Below, piece by piece: positions 3,613 to 17,678 of a stretch of DNA of 64,000 bases (its first letter is position 1; every line of letters begins with the position of its first letter). The position numbers were made by a program, and so were the translations under genes. Origin of the DNA: a virus; IMG/VR virus record IMGVR_UViG_3300010396_000006, positions 1-64,000 of that record. One strand, given 5' to 3'. Below the pieces are notes generated by a model that saw nothing but the letters and a program-made list of their open reading frames with translations, had not been told where the DNA came from and searched no databases.

Positions 3613-4693
3613 AACGACAATCGAATGGACGAATACCATTGATCAACTCGGCAATAGCCATCCGGGTTTCACGTTCAATCCGTGGTCGGGCTGTTCCAAG
3701 GTCAATGCGGGCTGTCAATTCTGCTATGCGGAGGTCAATCGATCAGTTCGAATTCGTGGTGTCACCTGGGGACCGAAAGGAAAACGAATCGTATCCAGTC
3801 CAGATTACTGGCAGAAACCATTGTCATGGAACAAGAAGGCATATCGTCTCGGCGTCAGACTGAAAGTATTTTGCGCCAGCTTGTCAGATGTGTTCGAAGA
3901 AATCGGAACAGACTTCGTGTTCGATCACAAAGGCAATCGGATTTTTCGACAGTTCGACGAGAATGCCACACTGTCGGGAAATCCATACATTGACGCGGCT
4001 GACCATTACCGAGTCGGGTTGCCAGAACTACGAAAGGATCTCTTCAACCTGATCGATATGACGCCGTATCTCGACTGGTTGATCCTGACAAAACGTCCGC
4101 AGAACATTCCGGAGATGTGGCCAAACACTCCTTATCCCGGACTTCAAGGACAATTCAGTTCGGAACCGCATCCGGTGAATAAGTATCGACCGAATGTCTG
4201 GCTAGGAACATCTATCAGCGATCAAGAAACAGCCAACGCGATGTTGCCAGAACTGTTGAAGTGTCGCGACCTGTCACCAGTGCTGTTCACGAGCTATGAG
4301 CCGGCATTGGGTCCCGTCGACTTCACGATGATCAGAGATCCGAACCGATTCCCTGGCTGTGCATACTTCGACGTCTTGCGTGGTCGAATGATCCATGAGG
4401 ACGACGGAAATCGCTGGACGAAAGAACCACATCTCGATCAAGTCATTGTCGGCGGTGAATCAGGTCCCAACGCTCGGCCGTACGAACTTGATTGGCCAAG
4501 GCAAACAATCAAGCAGTGTGCTGAATCCGGAATTGCTTGTTTCCATAAACAACTTGGATCATTCGCTTGGCGAAAATCAGATGGCGGTGGAATGAATGTT
4601 TACTTTCCAACCCGCGACAAGAAAGGCGGTGATCCTGCCGAGTGGCCGGAAGATCTGCGAGTCAGGCAATTTCCTGTTGTGTCAGCCGGATAG
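3605..4693 (+). CDS. DUF5131 (phage Gp37/Gp68) family protein, radical-SAM-like
   Basis: TTIEWT, FNPWSGCSKVNAGCQFCYAE (CX6CX2C), LILTKRP, SYEPALG, VIVGGESG, FHKQLG. Confidence 0.92.
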   Translation: MAETTIEWTNTIDQLGNSHPGFTFNPWSGCSKVNAGCQFCYAEVNRSVRIRGVTWGPKGKRIVSSPDYWQKPLSWNKKAYRLGVRLKVFCASLSDVFEEIGTDFVFDHKGNRIFRQFDENATLSGNPYIDAADHYRVGLPELRKDLFNLIDMTPYLDWLILTKRPQNIPEMWPNTPYPGLQGQFSSEPHPVNKYRPNVWLGTSISDQETANAMLPELLKCRDLSPVLFTSYEPALGPVDFTMIRDPNRFPGCAYFDVLRGRMIHEDDGNRWTKEPHLDQVIVGGESGPNARPYELDWPRQTIKQCAESGIACFHKQLGSFAWRKSDGGGMNVYFPTRDKKGGDPAEWPEDLRVRQFPVVSAG

Positions 4694-4957: not shown

Positions 4958-5309
4958 AGAACTGGTGTCGAAGATCATCTGTTGCATCCGTGCGGCTCGG
5001 CTTGATCTCTCGGATGAGAAAGCGACTCAACGCGATCTCGCCGAGATGTTCACTCAGGAACGGATTTTCTTCGCCCGTGAAGTTCGCCTATCCAGAGCAG
5101 ACATTATCGACTTCATGATTCAAGGCATCGGCATCGAAGTGAAGTTGCAAGGGGCCGTCAAAACGGCGGTCCATCGTCAATTGGTTCGGTACGCAAAACA
5201 CGACAACATCAAGTGTCTGATTCTGGTCTCGAATCTCAGCATGGGATTGCCACAACAGATCGAAGGGAAAGACGTCTATTTCGTCAGCGCGGCAGAGGGC
5301 TGGTTGTGA
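4941..5309 (+). CDS. small PD-(D/E)XK nuclease-like protein
   Basis: IIDF...GIGIEVK...QLVRYA; coupled to the SNF2 helicase. Confidence 0.65.
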   Translation: MTDPIKELVSKIICCIRAARLDLSDEKATQRDLAEMFTQERIFFAREVRLSRADIIDFMIQGIGIEVKLQGAVKTAVHRQLVRYAKHDNIKCLILVSNLSMGLPQQIEGKDVYFVSAAEGWL

Positions 5310-6988
5310 GAACGTACGGCAAGATTCAACTTACTCCCGATGGAACGAAATGGGTGATCACCAAAGCGGAGCCGCACGTCTCGATCCGATTGAAAACCTT
5401 GTTCCCAAGTATTCCGAAAGGAAATGTCCCGCCATATTGGTTGCCTCACAGTCTGCCTGTTGATGCCGATCTCGATTGGTTCATGATCCGATATCCGCTG
5501 GAGATGTCAGAACAGGATCGAGCGGCACTAACCATCGGCCGCGAAAAGTACCTCGCACGCCAAGCCGAGATGGAACAGATCCTGATGCCGGATTACGTCC
5601 CCGCGAAGTCGGCAAAATTAAGGGAAGGCCAACAACTGAGGCCGTATCAATGGCAAGCAATCGAGATCCTGAAACGTCGCGGAAGCCTGTTGATCAGCGA
5701 CGAAATGGGACTCGGGAAAACTTACACGGCGGCAGGATTCATGGTCAGTCGGGCTGATTCGCTTCCCGCCGCCGTAGTCTGCGATGCTCACATGCAGCAA
5801 CAATGGAAAGAGAAGATCGAATCGTTCACGTACCTGAAAGTATGTCTGATCAAAAAGGCATCTGCCTATAGTTTGCCGGCGGCGGACGTCTACGTATTCC
5901 GAATCAGTCAGGTTGCCGGATGGTCAGAGATCTTCGATACCGGGTTTTTCCAATCGGTGACATACGATGAGCCTCAATCATTGAGGACGGGAACATCAAC
6001 CAGCAAAGGAACCGCCTGCAAGATTCTGTCCAAGAACACAAAGTATCGTTGCGGGCTGAGTGCTACGCCGGTTTTCAACTATGGCGATGAAATGTGGCGG
6101 ATTCTCCAATTCATCGACGATGCCGTTTTGGGATCATGGGATGATTTTGCGAGGGAATGGTGCTACCCAATGGGCAACGGAAAATTCCGCGTTGATAATC
6201 CAAAGGCCCTTGGGTCATACCTTCGCGAACAGCATGCGATGTTGAGGCGCACAAAAGCGGATATTGGTCAGCAATTGCCGAAAGTGTCCCGAATCGTCGA
6301 ACACGTTGACTATGACGAAAAGGCCGTTCAAGCCGTCGAGGATCTGGCTTGCATGCTGGCAGTCAAAGCGACTACAGCCAGTTTCGTTGAACGAGGGAAT
6401 GCCGTCAGGGAATTGGACGTCATGGTTAGGCAGGCAACGGGGATTTCCAAAGCGAAGACTGTTGCGACATTCAGCAGGATGATCGTCGAAGCCGGTGAAC
6501 CGATCATCCTATGGGGTTGGCATCGCGGGGTCTATGAAATCTGGAATCAAGAACTAGCCGATCTCAATCCCGCCATGTACACGGGAAGTGAATCAGCATC
6601 GCAGAAGCAAAAAGCGAAAGACAAATTTCTGAACGGTGAAACCGACGTATTGATCATGTCGCTGCGAAGCGGGGCCGGGGTTGATGGACTGCAAAAGCGA
6701 TGTTGTACTGGCATCTTCGGTGAATTGGATTGGTCCCCTGGGATTCATGCCCAATGCATCGGACGTCTCGATCGAGAAGGCCAAGAGAACCCCGTGACGG
6801 CATTCTTCCTTGTGGTCGATGATGGAAGCGATCCGCCGATCATGGATGTGTTGGGAATCAAAGCGTCAGAAGCATCCTCAATCATCGATCCGCATTTGGG
6901 CGTGGAGATGAAAGAGAACGACACCAGTCGATTGCAAAAGCTGGTTGAGCGATATTTAGATCGAAAGAAGTCAAAGTCGGTAGCGTGA
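5306..6988 (+). CDS. SNF2-family helicase/ATPase
   Basis: LRPYQ, DEMGLGKT (Walker A), YDEPQ, LSATP, GAGVDGLQ, QCIGRLDREGQ; GTG start overlaps upstream TGA. Confidence 0.9.
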   Translation: MRTYGKIQLTPDGTKWVITKAEPHVSIRLKTLFPSIPKGNVPPYWLPHSLPVDADLDWFMIRYPLEMSEQDRAALTIGREKYLARQAEMEQILMPDYVPAKSAKLREGQQLRPYQWQAIEILKRRGSLLISDEMGLGKTYTAAGFMVSRADSLPAAVVCDAHMQQQWKEKIESFTYLKVCLIKKASAYSLPAADVYVFRISQVAGWSEIFDTGFFQSVTYDEPQSLRTGTSTSKGTACKILSKNTKYRCGLSATPVFNYGDEMWRILQFIDDAVLGSWDDFAREWCYPMGNGKFRVDNPKALGSYLREQHAMLRRTKADIGQQLPKVSRIVEHVDYDEKAVQAVEDLACMLAVKATTASFVERGNAVRELDVMVRQATGISKAKTVATFSRMIVEAGEPIILWGWHRGVYEIWNQELADLNPAMYTGSESASQKQKAKDKFLNGETDVLIMSLRSGAGVDGLQKRCCTGIFGELDWSPGIHAQCIGRLDREGQENPVTAFFLVVDDGSDPPIMDVLGIKASEASSIIDPHLGVEMKENDTSRLQKLVERYLDRKKSKSVA

Positions 6989-9048: not shown

Positions 9049-9602
9049 AACAAGCATTCCTCGACATGATTGATCGGCGAGTGGCCACGTATGAAAAAAT
9101 ACGGGACCCAAAACTTATCCCGATTGCCTTGGCGATTGTCGATCAACTGAATGAATTGAAACAAGAGGCGACGGAGTTCGTTGAGCCAGAATCAGCCGAA
9201 CAATCCGAAGCGAAGTGGCTGGAGAAGCATCAAGCCAATTTAGAGTCGATCGGAGCCGATCTGACATTCCAAAGCGGAGCAACACCAGAATTCAAACGCT
9301 GGTTCGAGACTTATCCGGGGCATCGACGGTGGGGAGAAAAAAAATGTCAACGCATCTTTCCCCGAGTGCTACAAACCATCGGTGATGAAATGAGGACAAG
9401 TTTGGACATGGCGTTAGAGCATCTGATTGCCGTGACAAAAACCTATGCGGATTCAGATAGGGGGAAAGGCGATTTCTGTTGGACCGCTGCCACATTTTTG
9501 GATGACGGACACTGGCGAGACAAACGAGATTCATGGAATGATCAAAAACCCAAGCAGACAGGAAGTCATGATGTCAGCCGACCAGTCGACACAGAATGGT
9601 GA
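9045..9602 (+). CDS. replication initiator / replisome organiser-like protein
   Basis: FKRWFETYP...ATFLDDGHWRD C-terminal signature; directly upstream of loader and DnaB. Confidence 0.6.
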   Translation: MKQAFLDMIDRRVATYEKIRDPKLIPIALAIVDQLNELKQEATEFVEPESAEQSEAKWLEKHQANLESIGADLTFQSGATPEFKRWFETYPGHRRWGEKKCQRIFPRVLQTIGDEMRTSLDMALEHLIAVTKTYADSDRGKGDFCWTAATFLDDGHWRDKRDSWNDQKPKQTGSHDVSRPVDTEW

Positions 9603-10287
9603 TGATCTCGCAAAAGAAAATCGACGTCGAATTAATCGACAACTGGAAGTCGAGCGGGCGGCAGACCGCATGTCCGAACTGCGAAAGCGAATCGGCAAAC
9701 GATATGAAAATTGTCACTTCGACAATTTCGAACTATCGCCCGTCGCATCGGTCCGTGAATCGCAGACAATGGTGATCAATCAACTCAGGCGGTACACGTC
9801 GCAACTGGCGCAATGCTGCACTGATGGAAGCGGCCTGGGGCTGATTGGGACTGTGGGGACCGGCAAGGATCATTTGATGGCGGCGTCAATGATGGTCGCC
9901 GTGGGTGACGGGCATTCAGTCGAATGGCGTGACGGCGCGGCGCTTTGCCGTGAATTTCATTCGGTCATCGAAGGTGTCACGACAGAACATCGCGTCTTGG
10001 CTCCCCTATTCAGTTGTGACATTCTGGCCATTTCGGATCTGTTGCCACCGGGAGCGGCCTTAAATGAATTTGTTCGATCAAAACTACTGGTCGTGATCGA
10101 TCAACGGTATCGGGACATGAAACCGATCTGGTGGTCGATCAATGAGACGAGAAAGAAGGATGCCGAATCGCGGATGTCACCCCCGATCTGGGACCGGCTG
10201 ACCGATGGCGGATTGATGCTGTCATTCGATTGGCCAAGTCATCGAGAAACCAGACGATGGACGGGGGCCGAATCTGATGGCCGATGA
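9568..10287 (+). CDS. DnaC/IstB-like helicase loader ATPase
   Basis: RYENCHFDNF, GTVGTGKDHL, ILAISDL, IDQRY, IWDRL. Confidence 0.85.
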   Translation: MMSADQSTQNGDDLAKENRRRINRQLEVERAADRMSELRKRIGKRYENCHFDNFELSPVASVRESQTMVINQLRRYTSQLAQCCTDGSGLGLIGTVGTGKDHLMAASMMVAVGDGHSVEWRDGAALCREFHSVIEGVTTEHRVLAPLFSCDILAISDLLPPGAALNEFVRSKLLVVIDQRYRDMKPIWWSINETRKKDAESRMSPPIWDRLTDGGLMLSFDWPSHRETRRWTGAESDGR

Positions 10288-11614
10288 CCGCAGGAAAACC
10301 AAGGCAATTGAAGACCACGGTTGCTTTCAATCACTGAGCGCCGAGAAATCGGTTCTTGGTTGTGCATTGCTTGATTCGTCAGCCGCTGACGTGATGATCG
10401 GCATTCTCAAGCGAGCAGATTTCTACAACGATCTTCATGGTGGATTGTTCGGAGTCATCGAAGAGGAACGGCGAGCAGGCCGGGAAGTCGATGTTGTCAT
10501 CGCCACCGAAAAGATCATGGAAACCGGTTGGGCAAAGGAACTGCCCGAGCATCCGGCGTTATTCGTGCGGGAAATTCTGGAAACCGTCCCCTATGCGGTC
10601 CATGTGGCACATTACGCCGAAATCGTTAGAGATCGATCACTCAGAAGAAAGGCTTGGAATGGGTATCTGCAAGCACAACAAAAACTCAAATCGTTCGAAC
10701 CAGTCTCGGAAATTGTCGGCGAGACAATGTCGGATCTCCAACAAGTCATGTCAGACTCGGTCGACGATCATCCTGAATCGGCGAAGGATCTGCTGATCGG
10801 CGTTGTGACCAAATCGGATGCCGAGATGATCCAGACCTATTACCGGTCATTGGACGCGATCACGGGAGGGATGGCCGAATGCAGTATGACCGTGATGGCA
10901 GCAAGACCGTCCATCGGTAAGACCGCCTTGGCGATTGGAATCATCCGACGTGAAGCCCAGCATCATCATCCGGTGTTATTCTTCTCAAAGGAGATGCCAA
11001 AACTGGATGTGATGCAACGTCTGGCGTCGATCACAACAGGGTTGCCGTTCTCAGCGATTCGAGATCACCAGTTGAATCAGATTGAATGCGAGCAACTGAT
11101 GGAGATGCAAGAATCGGAATGGCTTTCCCGGATCTACATTGACGACGAACCGGGCCGCACGATCACCGAACTGAGCGCGATCATCCGGCTTTATGTTCAA
11201 CAAAAAGGTGTCAAGGTTGTGGTGATTGATTACCTGCAACTGATCCGATCGGAGAACACAAAGCAGCAACGGGAGCAGCAGGTCGCCGAGATCTCACGAG
11301 CGTTGAAAGGCATCGCCAAGAAAAACAAGATTCGAATCCTTTGCTTGTCACAGCTCAATCGTGAAGTCGACAAGCGGGACTCGAAAAAACCACGGCTATC
11401 CGACCTGCGAGAATCGGGAGCGATCGAACAGGATGCCGACCAAGTCTGGCTTCTATGGCGACCGAACAAAGATCCGATTGACCATCGGGATGAGGACAAC
11501 ATCGGGGAAGTGATCGTAGCGAAATCACGGAACGGTCAGACCGGGGTTGCTAAACTTGCGTGGCACGGTCCCACGATGACGTATTCGGATTGGGAATCGA
11601 AAGACGGATTTTGA
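10277..11614 (+). CDS. dnaB: replicative DNA helicase
   Basis: AEKSVLG, AARPSIGKT, VVIDYLQL, LSQLNR, SDLRESGAIEQDAD, VAKSRNG. Confidence 0.97.
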   Translation: MADDRRKTKAIEDHGCFQSLSAEKSVLGCALLDSSAADVMIGILKRADFYNDLHGGLFGVIEEERRAGREVDVVIATEKIMETGWAKELPEHPALFVREILETVPYAVHVAHYAEIVRDRSLRRKAWNGYLQAQQKLKSFEPVSEIVGETMSDLQQVMSDSVDDHPESAKDLLIGVVTKSDAEMIQTYYRSLDAITGGMAECSMTVMAARPSIGKTALAIGIIRREAQHHHPVLFFSKEMPKLDVMQRLASITTGLPFSAIRDHQLNQIECEQLMEMQESEWLSRIYIDDEPGRTITELSAIIRLYVQQKGVKVVVIDYLQLIRSENTKQQREQQVAEISRALKGIAKKNKIRILCLSQLNREVDKRDSKKPRLSDLRESGAIEQDADQVWLLWRPNKDPIDHRDEDNIGEVIVAKSRNGQTGVAKLAWHGPTMTYSDWESKDGF

Positions 11615-12228: not shown

Positions 12229-12489
12229 GTGACGACAGCAAAGAAAACATTTCTGCAAGATGGCAACGAAGTCGCGAAGTGCCGAACCGAGGTCATCAAT
12301 CAAACCGTCAAGCTGTTAAAGCTATTGCAGATTCCAAAAGACAAAGTCGACATGGAATCGGTAGACAGACTGATTGACGAGATCAGCCGATCAGCATCGC
12401 GGGCAACCCTGAAGAAACAGGCATTCAGAGCGAAGTGGACGGCGGATGGAGCGCGGAAAGCAGATCTGGAAAAGGCAGCGACACACTAA
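12229..12489 (+). CDS. hypothetical protein
   Basis: GTG start with AAGGA RBS. Confidence 0.55.
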   Translation: MTTAKKTFLQDGNEVAKCRTEVINQTVKLLKLLQIPKDKVDMESVDRLIDEISRSASRATLKKQAFRAKWTADGARKADLEKAATH

Positions 12490-12502: not shown

Positions 12503-12853
12503 ATGTCAGGAGAATTGAGCGTATTGAGTTGTTCGGCCGGTGATATCCGAGTCAAAGTCGATCCAAAAGACCCGGTGACAGTCGAGCGAGCCAAGAAGAT
12601 GATCCAAGACATGCTGAAGCGTGGCTATCTCTTGGCAATCGAGATCGATGGCAAGCTGGAAATGGTGAAAGAATTCGACCCGAAGACGGGCGAATATATC
12701 ATCATCGAAAGCGTCACAGCCGCGGAAGAGGAACCGACCGACGAGCCGGTAACAAGTACCGAACCAGTCGCCAAGCGAGGACGCGGACGGCCGAAGCGAA
12801 TTCCCATGACGGAAGCCAAGGTAACTGGGGTTCCTAGAACGGCGGGAGGTTGA
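12503..12853 (+). CDS. hypothetical protein with ubiquitin/ThiS-like C-terminal Gly-Gly
   Basis: GGAG RBS; ends KVTGVPRTAGG-stop. Confidence 0.65.
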   Translation: MSGELSVLSCSAGDIRVKVDPKDPVTVERAKKMIQDMLKRGYLLAIEIDGKLEMVKEFDPKTGEYIIIESVTAAEEEPTDEPVTSTEPVAKRGRGRPKRIPMTEAKVTGVPRTAGG

Positions 12854-12855
12854 TC

Positions 12856-13587
12856 ATGCCCGTTACCTGGGAACAAATCGCGGAAGTTGCTTCGGAACTG
12901 GCGGAAGAGGCCGGCGAATGGTGCGGCGCGCCAGTGCCTGTTGATGATCTGCGGTTATCAATCGCACCGGGATACACGTTTGGGAAACTGGACGGTTTTC
13001 GTTTCAAGGAAGACGAATATACCGAAGGGGAAGAATTGAAAGACACGCTCGCCGAGGCGATTGAAAGCCGGGTGATCAATTCATGGTGGTGCGCTCGCCG
13101 TGGCGGCTGGGTGTTTGTGCTGAAAGGACGCGGCGGGAAATCCCGTCATCTGATCGTCGATGGCTATGCGACACGGCCAGTCGAAACACTGACTCGGCTG
13201 TTAATGGGTCTGTCAGTCTGCGAGGTCCAGAAACTCGATGCCGAGTTCATGGCGATGGACAAACTGAGATCGATGGTCAAGCCGCATCTGTTCAAGATGT
13301 ACATCATTCAGAACATTCTGCTGGAGACGTCGCCAAAATCCGGAGTGACTTACATTCTCAGAAAGGGACGTCCGACGATTGCCATGAAGGCGGATGGAAA
13401 CGGCAACATGCGGATTCTGTCCGTGTTATGTCTGCATCCGCTCGGCTACTACGAGGGAAGTTTTTGCGGCTGTATGGTCCCAACGGACGAATTGATTGCA
13501 CATCTGATCATGATCCGAGCGAACGAACATTTCTTCTGGCGGAAAGCGAATCATCATCGGTCATATGAATGGGAATCGGGACTCTGA
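12856..13587 (+). CDS. phage hypothetical protein with LCLHP motif, partner of the GG-ending protein
   Basis: GGAGG RBS lies within the upstream GG codons; LCLHP...PTDELIAH...EHFFWRKANHH. Confidence 0.75.
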   Translation: MPVTWEQIAEVASELAEEAGEWCGAPVPVDDLRLSIAPGYTFGKLDGFRFKEDEYTEGEELKDTLAEAIESRVINSWWCARRGGWVFVLKGRGGKSRHLIVDGYATRPVETLTRLLMGLSVCEVQKLDAEFMAMDKLRSMVKPHLFKMYIIQNILLETSPKSGVTYILRKGRPTIAMKADGNGNMRILSVLCLHPLGYYEGSFCGCMVPTDELIAHLIMIRANEHFFWRKANHHRSYEWESGL

Positions 13588-13601
13588 AACAAAATTGAGG
13601 A

Positions 13602-13683
13602 AAATCAGTAAGATTTCTATTGACGTCTGAAAAGAACGTCGATATTCTGATCTCAGTCACGCCGCTGACAGTAACCAGCCGCG
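13602..13683 (+). promoter_or_regulatory. sigma70-like promoter with operator palindrome and CAGTAAC leader hairpin
   Basis: AAATC-AGTAA-GATTT 13602-13616; TTGACG 13620-13625, 17 bp, TATTCT 13643-13648; hairpin 13660-13683 with loop ACAGTAAC. Confidence 0.8.
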
Positions 13684-13713
13684 AACGACATTCTTAAACG
13701 AAAGGCCAAGTCA

Positions 13714-14103
13714 ATGAAAACGCATCAATGGTCTAATGTGCCCGGTTCAGTCACGCTCGAACTCAGCAGCGATGAGGGTCCCTATCTGGGCGATCTGCAA
13801 AACGAGGTCGGATTCGAAGCGGGCGAACTCGAATTCCTGCGGCCGTTCTTGTCCGAACCGAACCGTACCGAAATCTCTATCAACTTCATCTCCAATGGCG
13901 AACACACGCCGATGTCGATGCATGGCGGACCGGACGGACTCGGTTGGCCAGAAGAGGGAGCAGAGGAGCGGTTGTTTCAATCCGCCGATGTGCTGATCGA
14001 TGGCAAGCTGGCATCGACATTGCCGCCAGAAATCGGACAACGGCTGTTTGATCTGTTCCATGATCAGGTCGAAGCCGCTGAACTCGAATACGATCGCGAA
14101 TAG
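13714..14103 (+). CDS. acidic hypothetical protein
   Basis: First ORF after promoter, AAAGG RBS. Confidence 0.7.
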   Translation: MKTHQWSNVPGSVTLELSSDEGPYLGDLQNEVGFEAGELEFLRPFLSEPNRTEISINFISNGEHTPMSMHGGPDGLGWPEEGAEERLFQSADVLIDGKLASTLPPEIGQRLFDLFHDQVEAAELEYDRE

Positions 14104-14144: not shown

Positions 14145-14582
14145 ATGACGCAAAGCAATGTTTCGACAGCCGCTCGCTATTCACTCAGCCTGATCATTGG
14201 TGATCAGACGTTGCCGCTATCTGACGTCTACGAAGATGGCGACGATCAATTCGTCATGCTGGCCGAAGCCCGCGAATATGGCACGGAAGCCAGTGAAGCA
14301 ACGATTGTCATCGTGACTGATGGCCAAGAGCATCGAGAAGACGTGTTCATCAAAGGCATCAAAGCCGATGATCGCCGAGTCGACACTGTGGCTCGTGACA
14401 AAGCCGATCTGGAAGAATTGCGAGATCAGAACGTGCGACAGTTCATCATCGACATGGAAGGCAAGTTACCAGTCGGCCAGTTGTGCGCCTGCGGAAACGA
14501 AGCGGTTGGTTGCGACAATGGCGATTGGACGTGTGCCCGCTGTTATCGGATCGCTGGCCGTCGCGAATCGTTCGTGAAGTAA
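14145..14582 (+). CDS. hypothetical protein with C-terminal Zn ribbon
   Basis: LCACG...CARC. Confidence 0.7.
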   Translation: MTQSNVSTAARYSLSLIIGDQTLPLSDVYEDGDDQFVMLAEAREYGTEASEATIVIVTDGQEHREDVFIKGIKADDRRVDTVARDKADLEELRDQNVRQFIIDMEGKLPVGQLCACGNEAVGCDNGDWTCARCYRIAGRRESFVK

Positions 14583-14634: not shown

Positions 14635-15789
14635 ATGGCCAAGAAACAAGCAAAACCAAAAGACCTGCTCGAAGACGATGTGTTCACGCCGGAAATCGGA
14701 CAAACCGATCTGGCTGTCGCCGCACGTCCGGTTGAATCGGAACTGGTCGTCACGAAGAAAGAACTGCTCGACATGGTCGAACGCTACACGAAACTGAAGA
14801 TCGACGGACCGCACGATGCCGATGGCCAGTTGGCTGTTGACGAAGCGTTCAAGGACTGCCGCCGCGTCTGGAACTTGATCGACAAGGCCCGCGAAAAGAA
14901 AAAACGGTTCTATCTCGACGAAGGGAACCGAATTCAGGCCGCTGCAAAAGAACTGTGGGCGATCGAGGAGCAAGCCGAGAAACATCTGAAGGCAGAAAAA
15001 GACCGCGTTGAAAAGGAACTGGCTGCGATCGTCGCGAAGCAACTGGATGACCGCGAAGACAACCGCAATTCAATGGTCGAAGCAATCGGCGGAATTCCTC
15101 CGATTCTCAAGTTGTCGGTCTCTGCCGATTTCGTTCGCGTCGCCGAACCTGCTCAGTTCGAAGAGTTCCTTGGTCGCGTCAAGAGCATGAACGAGGAGAT
15201 TGCACATCAAGCCGAGCAACAGAAAGAACTGGATCGCATCAAAGCCGAGCAAGACGAACGTCAACGCAAGCTGGATGAGGCCGAAAAAGAACAACAGCGC
15301 CAACGTGACGCGGAAGCCGCCAAGAACGCCATCCCGGAAAACACAATCGTTGGCTCTCAAGAAGATCAATGGTTCCATCAGCGAGTGTCAGGCGATGTTT
15401 CCCAGATTATGCCGACTGAATTCCCATATCCTTCAGTTAGCGCACGCGAATCCCAGGTGATCGACAATATCATCGGAGACGTCGCCAAGGTTCCTGACCG
15501 AGTTCCGTTCAATGACGTGCCGGCCCCGTTCTCAGGCTATCGACCAGTTGGTCAATCGGTCTCGCCATCGCTGAGCAGCGTCGAACGTCGATTGGTGAAC
15601 AAGGTGACTGGTTGCAGTATCGAATCACCGAACGAACTGCAATTGAACATTGAAACGATCACGGGCCGTCTCGAATTGCGAATCAGCCGCAAGGAATCCG
15701 AATCCCTGGCTCATCTGATCACGTCCACAATCGGGCTGGGTCATTTGACTAGAACGATTCCACGAGAAGCCGCAGAAGTCATCGCCTGA
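14635..15789 (+). CDS. coiled-coil protein of recombination module (DUF1351-like)
   Basis: Long heptad region; upstream of ERF/exonuclease. Confidence 0.6.
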   Translation: MAKKQAKPKDLLEDDVFTPEIGQTDLAVAARPVESELVVTKKELLDMVERYTKLKIDGPHDADGQLAVDEAFKDCRRVWNLIDKAREKKKRFYLDEGNRIQAAAKELWAIEEQAEKHLKAEKDRVEKELAAIVAKQLDDREDNRNSMVEAIGGIPPILKLSVSADFVRVAEPAQFEEFLGRVKSMNEEIAHQAEQQKELDRIKAEQDERQRKLDEAEKEQQRQRDAEAAKNAIPENTIVGSQEDQWFHQRVSGDVSQIMPTEFPYPSVSARESQVIDNIIGDVAKVPDRVPFNDVPAPFSGYRPVGQSVSPSLSSVERRLVNKVTGCSIESPNELQLNIETITGRLELRISRKESESLAHLITSTIGLGHLTRTIPREAAEVIA

Positions 15790-15839: not shown

Positions 15840-16037
15840 GTGTTAGTTTTATCACGAAAAAAGGGTGAGACGGTGGAAATCGGAAAGGCCGGAGATGTTC
15901 TGACCGGTCCGATCATTGTGACAGTCGTGGAAGTTCGTGGTGACAAAACCAGAATCGGAATTCAGGCCGATCGAGATGTCCCAGTCCACCGCGGCGAAGT
16001 GGCAGAAGCGATCGCACGGGAGCAAGAAGGCAAATAG
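15840..16037 (+). CDS. csrA: carbon storage regulator CsrA/RsmA
   Basis: MLVLSRKKGE...IIVTVVEVRGDKTRIGIQADRDVPVHRGEV. Confidence 0.93.
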   Translation: MLVLSRKKGETVEIGKAGDVLTGPIIVTVVEVRGDKTRIGIQADRDVPVHRGEVAEAIAREQEGK

Positions 16038-16606: not shown

Positions 16607-16801
16607 GTGATCTACGTTCCGCTTCATGCTCATGGTGACGTGAATCATCCCGACGTCGAACATGGTGCGGTATCATCGTTCAACGGCCATTCCGTGTTCG
16701 TGAAGTTCGACAAACAGGTTCAGAAATTCGGTTGGGACGGAACAACCTCTCAAGCCTGCGACCCCAGTGATCTGCAAGTGGAGAAAAATAGCCATGACTG
16801 A
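16607..16801 (+). CDS. hypothetical protein
   Basis: YVPLHAHGD...EHGAVSS...VFVKFD; true start may be upstream. Confidence 0.55.
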   Translation: MIYVPLHAHGDVNHPDVEHGAVSSFNGHSVFVKFDKQVQKFGWDGTTSQACDPSDLQVEKNSHD

Positions 16802-17678
16802 GCAAGCAACGATCGTCGAACCGGAAGTGATCAATGTCGGGGACTTCGAGCCAAAGCGAGCGCCGCACATTGTTGACTCATCAAAGTCAAAAGACACTGA
16901 TTCCCCAAACCAGTTGATCGCGATGGCGATTGATAAAGGATTGGGCGTTGATGGACTTTCGAAATTGATGGATCTCAAAAAAGACTGGGAAGATCGCGAA
17001 GCTCGCAAAGCATTCGCCCGTGACATGGCGATCGTTCAATCGAAAACGCCACGAGTTTTACGGACGAAAGAAAACAAGCAAACCAATTCATGGTATGCGC
17101 CGCTCGACGAAGTGAATTCAACCATATTGCCAGTCGCGTCCGAATATGGGTTTTCAATCTCATTCAGTGAAGGATCGGAATTCGTCGGCGAACACAAAAT
17201 CCCGATGAAGGAAAAGATGTTCCGCACGACGATGATTCTGCGCCATCGCGACGGACATCAGGAAATTCACTTCTATGATCTTCCGACCGATGAGGCGGGA
17301 TTTAAGGGAGGGGCGAACAAAACAGCCGTCCACGGGAAGGCCAGCAGCACGACGTATGCGGAGCGATATCTATTGTGCCAAGTCTTCTCGATCACGATTC
17401 AGGGGTTGGATAACGACGGCAATACGACGTCGCGAACTCTCAGCGAGACAGAGGAAAACCTGATCCGAAATCGAATGGCCGACTGCGAACGTCTCGGTAA
17501 AGTCATCAGCGAGCGGAAAATGCTGGAATATGTTGCTGAGATGCAAAAGAAGCCGGTCAATACGATCGACGAAATCGAGGTTCAATTCTTCGCTCGTGTG
17601 ATGCATTCACTGGACAACGCCTATCGTCAGGCACTTCAGGCAAATGGCTATCGGGAGGGCGGTGATCAGAAACCATGA
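16794..17678 (+). CDS. ERF-family single-strand annealing protein
   Basis: AFARDMAIVQ, WYAPLDEV, GKASSTTYAERYLL...DNDG. Confidence 0.85.
   Translation: MTEQATIVEPEVINVGDFEPKRAPHIVDSSKSKDTDSPNQLIAMAIDKGLGVDGLSKLMDLKKDWEDREARKAFARDMAIVQSKTPRVLRTKENKQTNSWYAPLDEVNSTILPVASEYGFSISFSEGSEFVGEHKIPMKEKMFRTTMILRHRDGHQEIHFYDLPTDEAGFKGGANKTAVHGKASSTTYAERYLLCQVFSITIQGLDNDGNTTSRTLSETEENLIRNRMADCERLGKVISERKMLEYVAEMQKKPVNTIDEIEVQFFARVMHSLDNAYRQALQANGYREGGDQKP

What the first reader, a model, noticed from the sequence alone, without database searches (positions are those of the whole stretch)
12503..13587. Protein ending in ...VPRTAGG coupled to a Cys/His partner: possible minimal ubiquitin-like conjugation pair
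Seen: the 116-aa protein ends KVTGVPRTAGG-stop, a beta-strand plus di-glycine tail like ThiS/MoaD/ubiquitin-like proteins. The next gene starts 2 nt later and carries LCLHP...CGCMVPTD...E.FFWRKAN. No E1/ThiF, JAB or sulfur-transfer gene is visible in the window. I recall similar two-gene pairs in other phages but cannot verify this. Inference: a phage modifier plus a thioester-forming ligase or peptidase, or a decoy against host Ubl-based defences (CBASS Cap2/Cap3, Bil). Caveat: the GG codons also supply the downstream GGAGG RBS.
Basis: partly seen in the sequence, partly recalled or inferred. Interest (0 to 1): 0.75.

Follow-up and report, generated by a model that had tools for sequence, protein, structure and literature searches.

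The report
Phage Gly-Gly-tailed protein and Cys-His partner
A complete 106-kb phage genome carries an undescribed but widespread two-gene unit: a small protein that almost always ends exactly at Ala-Gly-Gly, and a partner with an invariant Cys-x-His-Pro centre; it looks like a ubiquitin-style tagging or processing pair with no activating enzyme of its own, but no chemistry has been shown.

Summary
Gene 12503-12853 encodes 116 aa ending VPRTAGG-stop. Gene 12856-13587 (243 aa) carries LCLHP, CGCMVPTD and EHFFWRKAN.

The Gly-Gly end is not a by-product of the ribosome-binding site:
- 102 of 106 homologues in other phages and prophages end AGG-stop.
- All four Gly codons and all three stop codons are used.
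- Only 35 of 96 unique tails hold a GGAGG/AGGAG motif.
- Five loci have the gene order swapped and still end in GG.

The two genes are the only conserved neighbours across 130 loci. In at least 14 protein clusters they are fused in one frame at AGG|M (once AGG|C). That implies cutting after Gly-Gly, or function without a free end.

In the partner only C192 and H194 are invariant; the CGC cysteines are not.

Best reading (0.4): a Cys/His enzyme acts on the tail, closest in mechanism to E1-free E2-CBASS.

This scan noted the same pair before on other DNA.

The parts
12503..12853 (+). Small gene (116 aa plus stop), protein P0001
   Evidence: Translation. Eight close homologues share the same start. 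106 adjacent homologues were found in fetched loci. No Pfam, PHROG, NCBIfam or PADLOC family matches.
12503..12712 (+). N-terminal conserved globular domain (residues 1-70), predicted as strand-strand-helix-strand-strand-strand
   Evidence: AF2 secondary structure and pLDDT of 64-83. Invariant residues are L8, G13, G41 and Y65; near-invariant are G11, D14, D36, M37 and F58. The fold match is weak: ubiquitin-like or Sm-like.
12713..12790 (+). Variable, predicted-disordered acidic-then-basic linker (residues 71-96); the AT-hook-like RGRGRPKR run lies at 12776-12799 and extends into the tail
   Evidence: pLDDT is below 50 for residues 70-95. Length and sequence vary between homologues. PF02178 (AT_hook) matches weakly in 10 of 88 homologues.
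12791..12850 (+). Conserved C-terminal tail (residues 97-116) ending P-R-T-A-G-G; the Gly-Gly codons are at 12845-12850
   Evidence: Tail logo from 96 unique homologues: [RK][RE][VI]PAxx[TA][RK]A[VT]AV[AG]R[TS]AGG. The stop follows GG directly in 102 of 106.
12846..12850 (+). GGAGG formed by the Gly-Gly codons, 5 nt before the partner's ATG: the likely RBS in this phage only
   Evidence: Sequence. Only 35 of 96 relatives have such a motif at this place.
12856..13587 (+). Partner gene (243 aa plus stop), protein P0002
   Evidence: Translation. 66 homologues. 697 clusters at 50% identity with E <= 0.001. No family in any library. No PDB sequence match.
13204..13584 (+). Highly conserved C-terminal domain (residues 117-243): helices, a four-strand meander, then two helices
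   Evidence: AF2 block pLDDT is 92-98 over residues 121-230. Invariant residues are E130, A133, L137, S159, Y166, P173, T174, C192, H194, G205, P209, D211, R221, E224 and W228. The UBC/RWD/UEV resemblance is weak.
13426..13440 (+). LCLHP: invariant C192 (13429-13431) and H194 (13435-13437) at the end of the fourth strand; candidate catalytic centre
   Evidence: Invariant in 88 of 88 sequences. Position taken.

Best explanation
The two genes form one functional unit. The 243-aa partner is proposed to be an enzyme whose invariant Cys192-x-His194-Pro centre acts on the invariant Ala-Gly-Gly C-terminus of the small protein.

Inferred steps:
1. The extended tail docks on the partner's conserved C-terminal domain.
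2. Where residues follow Gly-Gly (the fused clade and rare extended forms), the partner cuts after Gly-Gly.
3. The Gly-Gly carboxyl is held as an acyl (thioester) intermediate on Cys192 and passed to an amine on a target, or is released. This would be ubiquitin-like tagging without a phage-encoded E1.

The closest worked-out mechanism is the E1-free E2 of E2-CBASS. For the majority form, which already ends at Gly-Gly, activation would need either a host ThiF/MoeB-type enzyme or chemistry not yet known.

The small protein's basic, AT-hook-like linker and the position of the pair among replication and recombination genes suggest action at DNA early in infection.

What is shown: the conservation, the gene linkage, the fusions, the invariant residues and the absence of a phage E1 or JAB. 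What is inferred: docking, cleavage, thioester formation and any target.
For: - The end of the protein is fixed at AGG in 102 of 106 homologues, despite linkers of very different length.
- Codon use shows selection on the amino acids, not on an RBS.
- GG is kept in five loci with swapped gene order. It is also kept in loci where the partner's start appears to lie 120-158 nt upstream.
- The pair is the only conserved gene set in 130 loci from many phyla.
- Natural in-frame fusions keep AGG exactly at the junction in at least 14 clusters. Four homologues carry short extensions after AGG. Both patterns are those of ubiquitin-like precursors that need a cognate peptidase.
- The partner has an invariant Cys and His plus D211, E224, R221 and S159 in a domain modelled at pLDDT above 90.
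- That domain's best structural resemblances are Ubc9, RWD and UEV domains.
- The top Foldseek hits for the small protein are nearly all ubiquitin, SUMO or NEDD8, and full-length alignments run from residue 1 to the GG end.
- Precedent: an E2 with a Cys/His pair cleaves after the C-terminal Gly of its partner and links to it without an E1 (bioRxiv 10.1101/2022.05.25.493364, sections read; PMC12948482).
Against: - No profile similarity to Prok-E2_A or Prok-E2_B (probability below 5%).
- None of 88 members hits ThiS, ubiquitin or E2 families in Pfam.
- The cysteine at the canonical E2 distance from His-Pro (C204) is not conserved. The invariant Cys lies two residues before the His, which is not the E2 arrangement.
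- Most family members have nothing to cleave after GG, so transpeptidation cannot supply the energy. No adenylating enzyme is encoded.
- The disordered insert between the globular domain and the tail is unlike classical Ubls.
- Simple covariation between tail and partner gave no clear signal.
Confidence: 0.4

Rival explanations
1. A purely non-covalent pair. The conserved tail is a docking peptide that adds a strand to the partner, with the terminal carboxylate clamped by conserved arginines. The small protein then tethers the partner, an enzyme or regulator of unknown activity, to DNA through its AT-hook-like linker during early infection.
For: - The alternating small residues of the tail (A-V-A-V-A-R) suit a beta-strand.
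- The basic, AT-hook-like linker recurs.
- The pair sits among replication and recombination genes: SNF2 helicase, DnaC-like loader, DnaB and ERF.
- No E1 is encoded.
- Fused forms show that a covalent peptide link between the two is tolerated.
- Folds are unresolved.
Against: - A docking peptide does not explain why translation stops exactly after GG in 96% of very divergent homologues.
- It does not explain why AGG is kept at fusion junctions.
- The invariant Cys-x-His-Pro with Asp, Glu and Ser points to catalysis, though that catalysis need not act on the tail.
Confidence: 0.3
2. Hijack or decoy. The small protein mimics MoaD, ThiS or a defence Ubl, or the Gly-ended tail of CD-NTases. It is adenylated by a host E1-type enzyme (MoeB/ThiF, Cap2 or BilD). 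The partner is its peptidase/deconjugase or traps the host enzyme. The outcome is either phage-directed tagging that uses host activation, or blockage of Ubl-based defence.
For: - The phage has the GG protein and a Cys/His partner but no E1.
- ThiF-type enzymes were found in all 14 control genomes, so a host activator is generally at hand.
- The tail resembles the sulfur-carrier ending [PA]-x-T-[GA]-G-G (recalled from E. coli MoaD; my own knowledge, not tested).
- An early-gene position suits counter-defence.
Against: - The pair is spread over phages of many phyla, whereas Bil and type II CBASS are patchy.
- No PADLOC or anti-defence family match.
- Nothing links the pair to any host E1.
- The small protein's own domain is strongly conserved, more than a mere tail decoy would need.
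Confidence: 0.17
3. Sulfur relay. The small protein is a thiocarboxylate carrier like ThiS, MoaD or TtuB. The partner's Cys192 carries a persulfide for thiolation of a nucleic acid or cofactor.
For: - A GG end with no conjugation machinery is typical of sulfur carriers (Iyer et al. 2006, PMC1779556).
- The partner has a single invariant Cys.
- Related loci often carry nucleic-acid-modification-type neighbours, DUF5131-like and ASCH-like by motif only.
Against: - No PP-loop, rhodanese, ThiF or radical-SAM partner is conserved with the pair.
- No ThiS/MoaD profile match in 88 members.
- Fusion of carrier to partner at the GG end would block thiocarboxylate formation unless the fusion is cleaved.
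Confidence: 0.05
4. The GG end is incidental: a by-product of the GGAGG ribosome-binding site for the next gene, or chance.
For: In this window the GG codons do form GGAGG 5 nt before the partner's ATG. A next gene often starts within about 10 nt of the stop in relatives.
Against: - All four Gly codons are used at both positions.
- 61 of 96 tails lack any GGAGG/AGGAG motif.
- Gaps to the partner range from -10 to more than 200 nt, and some loci have the swapped order.
- In many loci the partner's start appears to lie well upstream of the GG codons.
- Ala at position -3 is 93/96.
Confidence: 0.02

Closest known systems
E2-CBASS (type II short CBASS): stand-alone E2 with its CD-NTase, e.g. Serratia marcescens SmE2/SmCdnG
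   Same: - A two-protein unit without an E1.
- The substrate has a conserved C-terminal Gly on an extended tail that inserts into the enzyme.
- The enzyme is built as a helix, four strands, a loop carrying the catalytic Cys near the last strand, then a helix.
- A Cys/His pair does protease-type cleavage after the Gly and forms a thioester, then an isopeptide.
- Here the partner has the same order of elements, with invariant Cys and His at the end of strand 4. Natural forms exist with residues after the Gly.
   Different: - That system is a host defence; this pair is phage-borne.
- There the substrate is a large nucleotidyltransferase; here it is a small dedicated protein.
- No sequence or profile similarity to prokaryotic E2 families.
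- The Cys lies before the His by two residues, not about 14 after.
- The partner has an extra N-terminal half of about 115 aa.
- Covalent linkage is not shown here.
ThiS/MoaD/ubiquitin-type beta-grasp modifiers with ThiF-type E1 (including TtuB and SAMPs, which conjugate without an E2)
   Same: - A small protein with a free, invariant Gly-Gly end on a flexible tail.
- Rare precursor-like forms with residues after GG.
- Secondary-structure order compatible with a beta-grasp.
- Foldseek's top hits are ubiquitin-family chains.
   Different: - No profile match.
- The fold is unproven and ties with the Sm fold.
- A disordered insert of 10-60 aa precedes the last strands and the tail.
- No E1 in the phage.
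- The partner family is unknown.
Phage lambda/T1 tail-assembly Ubl (TAPI) with the JAB/NlpC peptidase TAPK (Iyer, Burroughs and Aravind 2006, PMC1779556)
   Same: A phage-encoded Ubl-like domain with a conserved C-terminal Gly, next to or fused to a peptidase predicted to cut at that Gly.
   Different: - That pair lies in the tail module and uses JAB and NlpC/P60 folds.
- This pair lies in the early replication region.
- The partner has no JAB motif, and no Prok-JAB match exists anywhere in the genome.
Bil/Bub bacterial Ubl conjugation operons (E1, E2, Ubl, deubiquitinase)
   Same: [quoted passage not shown]
   Different: - Those are four-gene host defence operons with E1 and DUB.
- Here there are two genes, on the phage side.
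- No PADLOC match.

Membership tests
Ubiquitin-like / ThiS-MoaD beta-grasp modifiers | Beta-grasp fold | tested here: inconclusive
Ubiquitin-like / ThiS-MoaD beta-grasp modifiers | Free C-terminal Gly-Gly (or Gly) that is conserved | tested here: met
   102 of 106 homologues end AGG-stop. G-1 and G-2 are 96/96 and A-3 is 93/96, with all Gly codons used.
Ubiquitin-like / ThiS-MoaD beta-grasp modifiers | Sequence-profile membership (Pfam ThiS, ubiquitin and relatives) | tested here: not met
   No such family among the hits of 88 members scanned at E <= 10. No hit for P0001 in Pfam or NCBIfam.
Ubiquitin-like / ThiS-MoaD beta-grasp modifiers | Cognate adenylating E1 (ThiF/MoeB type) in the same system | tested here: not met
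   PF00899 has no match at E <= 1 in the complete phage genome, while the same search matched in all 14 control genomes (over the family's cut-off in 11). No third conserved gene in 130 loci. A host E1 cannot be excluded.
Ubiquitin-like / ThiS-MoaD beta-grasp modifiers | Covalent attachment through the terminal Gly (thioester, isopeptide or thiocarboxylate) | not testable with these tools
   Needs biochemistry or mass spectrometry.
E2 / UBC superfamily (including RWD and UEV) | UBC-like fold: helix, four-strand meander, then helices | tested here: inconclusive
E2 / UBC superfamily (including RWD and UEV) | HPN motif with the catalytic Cys about 10 residues downstream | tested here: not met
   His194-Pro195 is invariant and follows strand 4, but the next residue is L/I/V, not Asn. 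Cys204 (His+10) and Cys206 are not conserved. The only invariant Cys is at His-2.
E2 / UBC superfamily (including RWD and UEV) | Profile similarity to prokaryotic E2 families | tested here: not met
   hhalign of A4, or of its halves, against small alignments of Prok-E2_A (4 sequences) and Prok-E2_B (10 sequences) gives probability of 4.5% or less. No E2 family among the Pfam hits of 88 members. The template alignments were shallow.
E2-CBASS-type Cys/His protease-ligase | Conserved Cys and His needed for cleavage after the partner's C-terminal Gly | tested here: inconclusive
   Invariant C192 and H194 exist, and forms with residues after GG exist. Spacing and order differ from SmE2 (C101, H87). 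Activity is untested.
JAB/MPN metallopeptidase | E...HxH...S..D zinc motif and MPN fold | tested here: not met
   CxH replaces HxH, and the S..D spacing is absent. No Prok-JAB match in the genome or in the Pfam scan of 88 members. No MPN chain among the fold matches listed, which by itself is not proof.

The most novel reading that the evidence does not exclude
Phages of many bacterial phyla carry a self-contained protein-tagging system that needs no E1. An enzyme with a UBC/RWD-like domain and a new Cys-x-His-Pro centre processes a DNA-associating ubiquitin-like protein at Ala-Gly-Gly. It then transfers that protein to host or phage targets early in infection. This would be a viral counterpart, and possibly an evolutionary relative, of the E1-free E2 of CBASS.
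Probability: 0.22. Interest if true: 0.9.

Novelty: new variant of a known kind. Interest (0 to 1): 0.7.

Why it matters
Ubiquitin-like conjugation in bacteria is so far known from host sulfur metabolism and host defence operons (CBASS Cap2/Cap3, E2-CBASS, Bil/Bub). On the phage side, the only case I met in the papers read was the predicted lambda-type tail-assembly Ubl with a JAB peptidase.

This pair is large: 697 clusters at 50% identity for the partner alone. It is spread over phages and prophages of Planctomycetota, Verrucomicrobiota, Pseudomonadota, Acidobacteriota, Chloroflexota and candidate phyla. No family in any library searched names it.

If the partner really works on the Gly-Gly end, it would be a new enzyme family for Ubl processing or transfer and a new phage strategy in early infection. 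It would also be a useful comparison for how E2-type chemistry can run without an E1.

The natural fused forms give a simple test: does the fusion cut itself at AGG|M? Two related loci lie in genome records of named strains, not MAGs, and are probably prophages: Sphingopyxis flava R11H (L100) and Verrucomicrobium sp. BvORR034 (L097).

Tried and rejected
- **Family libraries.** Pfam, PHROGs, NCBIfam and PADLOC gave nothing for either protein. Pfam scans of all 88 members of each family gave nothing apart from weak AT_hook and DUF hits.
- **PDB by sequence.** A profile search of PDB sequences with A2 found no match at E <= 10.
- **Partner fold searches.** Foldseek against PDB found nothing at E <= 0.001. 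pdb_via added nothing. BFVD found only one apparent family member, A0A1P8DIP4.
- **ESM Atlas.** Only unnamed viral clusters.
- **hhalign against Prok-E2_A and Prok-E2_B.** No relation. The only recurring weak alignment was the partner's N-terminal residues 6-42 against the E2 strand region, at P about 0.01-0.07. I treat it as noise.
- **Covariation.** Mutual information between tail positions -6, -5 and -4 and partner columns was dominated by phylogeny and gave no clear pair.
- **Annotated collections.** GenBank phages gave only one distant hit, Virus Rctr197k. PLSDB plasmids gave none.
- **Literature.** Four full-text searches found no paper on this pair; a fifth failed on a term that was too short.
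- **Ideas dropped.**
  - A sortase-type LPXTG reading of VPRTAGG: the Pro is not conserved and there is no membrane anchor.
  - A JAB-like reading of CLHP...PTD: the motif spacing is wrong and there is no MPN fold match.
  - A +1 ribosomal frameshift at GG-stop: Gly tRNA cannot re-pair, and an SD plus ATG was found upstream instead.
Full report
**1. What is in the window**

The + strand holds two closely spaced genes.
- Gene 1 runs 12503-12853 and encodes 116 aa ending KVTGVPRTAGG. The codons GGA GGT lie at 12845-12850 and TGA at 12851-12853.
- Gene 2 starts at ATG 12856, two nucleotides after the stop, and ends at 13587. It encodes 243 aa with LCLHP at residues 191-195, CGCMVPTD at 204-211 and EHFFWRKAN at 224-232.
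- The start at 12503 is preferred over the in-frame ATG at 12446, because every close homologue begins M-(S/G)-GEL.

The window belongs to a complete virus record of 105,647 bp with direct terminal repeats. The pair sits in a run of + strand early genes:
- SNF2-type helicase, 5213-6988
- DnaC-like loader, 9445-10287
- DnaB-type helicase, 10277-11614
- ERF-type annealing protein, 16767-17678

**2. No known family**

Neither protein matches Pfam, PHROGs, NCBIfam or PADLOC at E <= 1 in any meaningful way. A profile of the partner finds no PDB sequence at E <= 10. Among GenBank phages only one distant hit exists, Virus Rctr197k. PLSDB plasmids give none.

The partner family is nevertheless large. 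A profile search of 1.84 billion representatives gives 697 clusters at E <= 0.001 and 482 at E <= 1e-30. ESM Atlas neighbours are unnamed, mostly viral clusters.

**3. The pair is a unit**

A profile of the partner fetched 77 viral loci and 53 loci in bacterial genome assemblies. The assemblies include Pirellulales, Phycisphaerales, Verrucomicrobiota, Alpha- and Betaproteobacteria, Myxococcales, Acidobacteriota, Dehalococcoidia, Saccharibacteria and others.
- In 106 of the 130 loci a homologue of the small protein lies beside the partner on the same strand. It is usually directly upstream; in six loci it lies downstream.
- All-against-all clustering of every ORF in the loci shows that these two families are the only genes shared widely: 128 and 111 loci. 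The next clusters are antisense shadow ORFs or mixed groups.
- No E1-like, JAB-like or other third gene travels with the pair. The complete genome of this phage has no match to ThiF (PF00899) or Prok-JAB (PF14464) at E <= 1. The ThiF search matched in all 14 control genomes, over the family's cut-off in 11.

**4. The Gly-Gly end is selected as protein**

Of the 106 homologues, 102 end in AGG followed at once by a stop. Among 96 unique GG-ended sequences:
- The last two residues are Gly in 96/96 and the third-last is Ala in 93/96.
- The penultimate Gly uses GGC 39, GGA 35, GGT 13, GGG 9. The last Gly uses GGC 35, GGA 26, GGT 21, GGG 14.
- Stops are TGA 47, TAA 28, TAG 21.
- Only 35 have GGAGG or AGGAG in that stretch.

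The distance to the partner's homologous region runs from -10 to more than 200 nt, and five of the six loci with the swapped order still end in GG.

In this window GGAGG probably does serve as the partner's RBS, but that is not why GG is there.

The whole tail is conserved: [RK][RE][VI]PAxx[TA][RK]A[VT]AV[AG]R[TS]AGG. The linker before it varies in length and sequence.

**5. Fusions and extensions**

- Four homologues carry 2-17 residues after AGG: L064, L065, L086 and L115.
- The representative search and a targeted search for long proteins that contain the small domain found at least 14 distinct clusters (52-63% identical to the query in that domain) in which the two proteins are one reading frame. 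Thirteen have the junction ...AR[ST][AS]GG|MS..., and one has ...PRTAGG|CPPRD... with no Met.
- AGG is kept exactly at the junction.

This is Rosetta-stone evidence of a shared function. There are two possibilities: the free carboxylate is dispensable in that clade, or, as in ubiquitin precursors, the fusion is cut after Gly-Gly. The only conserved candidate for that cut is the partner itself.

**6. The partner**

In 88 diverse sequences the invariant residues are E130, A133, L137, S159, Y166, P173, T174, C192, H194, G205, P209, D211, R221, E224 and W228. All lie in the C-terminal half.

AlphaFold2 with 30 sequences gives mean pLDDT 85, with block values of 92-98 over residues 121-230. The order of elements is two helices, four antiparallel strands, C192-L-H194-P right after strand 4, a short strand, a loop, and then two helices starting at P209-T-D211.

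Fold searches:
- Foldseek finds nothing at E <= 0.001 in the PDB.
- Profile-profile comparison with small alignments of Prok-E2_A and Prok-E2_B gives no relation.

I therefore call the fold "possibly UBC/RWD-like, unproven". I do not file the protein as an E2. The canonical His-Pro-Asn plus Cys at +10 is not met, although His-Pro after strand 4 is. From memory, and as a lead only: Atg3-type E2s place the catalytic Cys directly next to His-Pro (the HPC motif).

**7. The small protein**

AlphaFold2 with only eight sequences gives mean pLDDT 66. The order is strand, strand, helix, three strands (residues 3-68), a disordered stretch (70-95), then two short strands (97-110) that pack back on the domain, and PRTAGG.

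Fold searches:
- Foldseek's top 50 are almost all ubiquitin, SUMO or NEDD8 chains, at E 0.015-0.1.

The beta-grasp reading is compatible but not shown. The linker often holds GRP/RGR runs; PF02178 (AT_hook) matches weakly in 10 of 88 members. In this phage the run is RGRGRPKR.

**8. Mechanism**

The strict end at AGG, the fused and extended forms, the tight gene linkage and the invariant Cys/His point to an enzyme that works on the tail.

The nearest worked-out case is the stand-alone E2 of E2-CBASS:
- The C-terminal tail of the CD-NTase inserts into the E2.
- Cys101 with His87 removes what follows the conserved Gly.
- A thioester forms and converts to an isopeptide, without E1 or added ATP (10.1101/2022.05.25.493364; PMC12948482).
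- That E2 is described as a helix, four strands, a loop carrying the Cys near the last strand, and a helix. This is the order of elements seen here.

The weak point of the analogy is energy. Most members of the present family have nothing to cleave after GG. A thioester would then need adenylation, perhaps by a host ThiF/MoeB-type enzyme, or the enzyme's normal job is only binding, deconjugation or something else.

My odds:
- Tail-directed catalysis (processing and/or transfer): 0.4
- Non-covalent docking pair: 0.3
- Host-E1 hijack or decoy: 0.17
- Sulfur carrier: 0.05
- RBS artefact or chance: 0.02

**9. A side result bearing on the RBS question**

In 71 of 97 loci the partner is in the +1 frame relative to the small gene. 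In about 25 loci, mostly in assemblies labelled Alpha- or Betaproteobacteria, there is no ATG, GTG or TTG near the start of homology.

Instead an ATG lies 120-158 nt before the small gene's stop, preceded by GGAG, GAGG or AAGGA. It opens a Lys/Arg-rich extension, for example M-T-K-N-R-Q-A-R-R-R, that runs into the partner. Gene callers also predict such extended partners (hits starting at residues 50-70).

The SD and ATG are spelled by the Glu-Glu...His/Asp-Gly/Ala/Val codons of the small protein's acidic linker. If real, the partner gene overlaps the linker and tail codons of the small gene, and the GG codons lie inside the partner's reading frame there. The tail is equally conserved in clades without the overlap, this window included. 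So the overlap does not explain the tail.

**10. Earlier notes of this scan**

The same pair was noted on other genomes: e1-5895670 and e1-5968821 by first readers, and e1-5926161 and e1-5940980 with follow-up. Those readings agree with mine: an undescribed Ubl-like GG protein with a partner carrying an invariant Cys, and no activating enzyme.
- One note says the partner is predicted to hold the tail.
- It also mentions Bradyrhizobium plasmids. This window's partner finds no plasmid in PLSDB.
- A note on this genome calls the host the planctomycete Schlesneria. I did not test it. The best genome-assembly matches are Pirellulales and Phycisphaerales MAGs.

**11. Verdict**

Both folds and all chemistry are still open.

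I rate it a new variant of a known kind (Ubl-type tail chemistry). The partner belongs to no named family in the libraries searched.

Noticed in passing
L039, L050, L100, L056, L041, L094 and about 20 further loci (junction region near locus position 3800-3960): The partner gene seems to start 120-158 nt inside the small gene, in the +1 frame. An SD-like GGAG/GAGG and an ATG are spelled by the acidic linker codons. The result is a Lys/Arg-rich N-terminal extension (M-T/S-K-N-R-Q-x-R-R) and a dual-coding stretch that covers the linker and the GG tail.
   Followed up: partly
protein P0095 (413 aa): A family member carries an insert of about 175 aa with an HNH-endonuclease-like motif (HHVNEDKADN...NYH). 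It lies inside the conserved C-terminal helix region, between MRGD and the final PEAGL. This could be an intein-like or homing-endonuclease insertion.
   Followed up: no
protein P0076 (340 aa): The variable middle of this partner homologue holds four tandem copies of a 17-aa unit (GVDQKATHHAS-x-LISTL).
   Followed up: no
window 15840-16037 (+): A 65-aa ORF beginning MLVLSRKKGETVEIG looks like a CsrA-type RNA-binding regulator encoded by the phage. This is judged by eye only and was not searched.
   Followed up: no
window 14145-14582 (+): A 145-aa ORF of no known family ends with a four-Cys pattern (C-A-C-G ... C-D ... C-A-R-C) that looks like a zinc ribbon. The ORF at 13714-14103 and the 384-aa ORF at 14635-15789 also have no family.
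   Followed up: partly
related loci, e.g. L045:2519-3604, L053:1482-2555, L100:4956-6002; L110:2909-3625; L004:4684-5139: Frequent, though not constant, neighbours of the pair are genes with the IEW-D-TWNP...C...C motif (DUF5131/Gp37-Gp68-like by eye), genes starting M-x-D-R-P-I-L-F-S-A-P-M-V, and ASCH-like genes (MKAISLWQPWA). None was searched against a library.
   Followed up: no
ESM Atlas structural neighbours of P0001: Clusters of 73-aa and 97-aa bacterial proteins resemble the N-terminal domain alone (TM 0.62-0.71 by the target). The 97-aa Verrucomicrobiota cluster probably matches the short-linker homologues seen in L082-L098. The 73-aa cluster may be a tail-less form.
   Followed up: no
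window 13588-13713: The pair ends a gene run. The 126-nt gap after the partner's stop holds TTGACG...TATTCT, which looks like a promoter, and other notes of this scan place a CAGTAAC-loop hairpin at 13669. The pair would then be the last two genes of a transcription unit.
   Followed up: no
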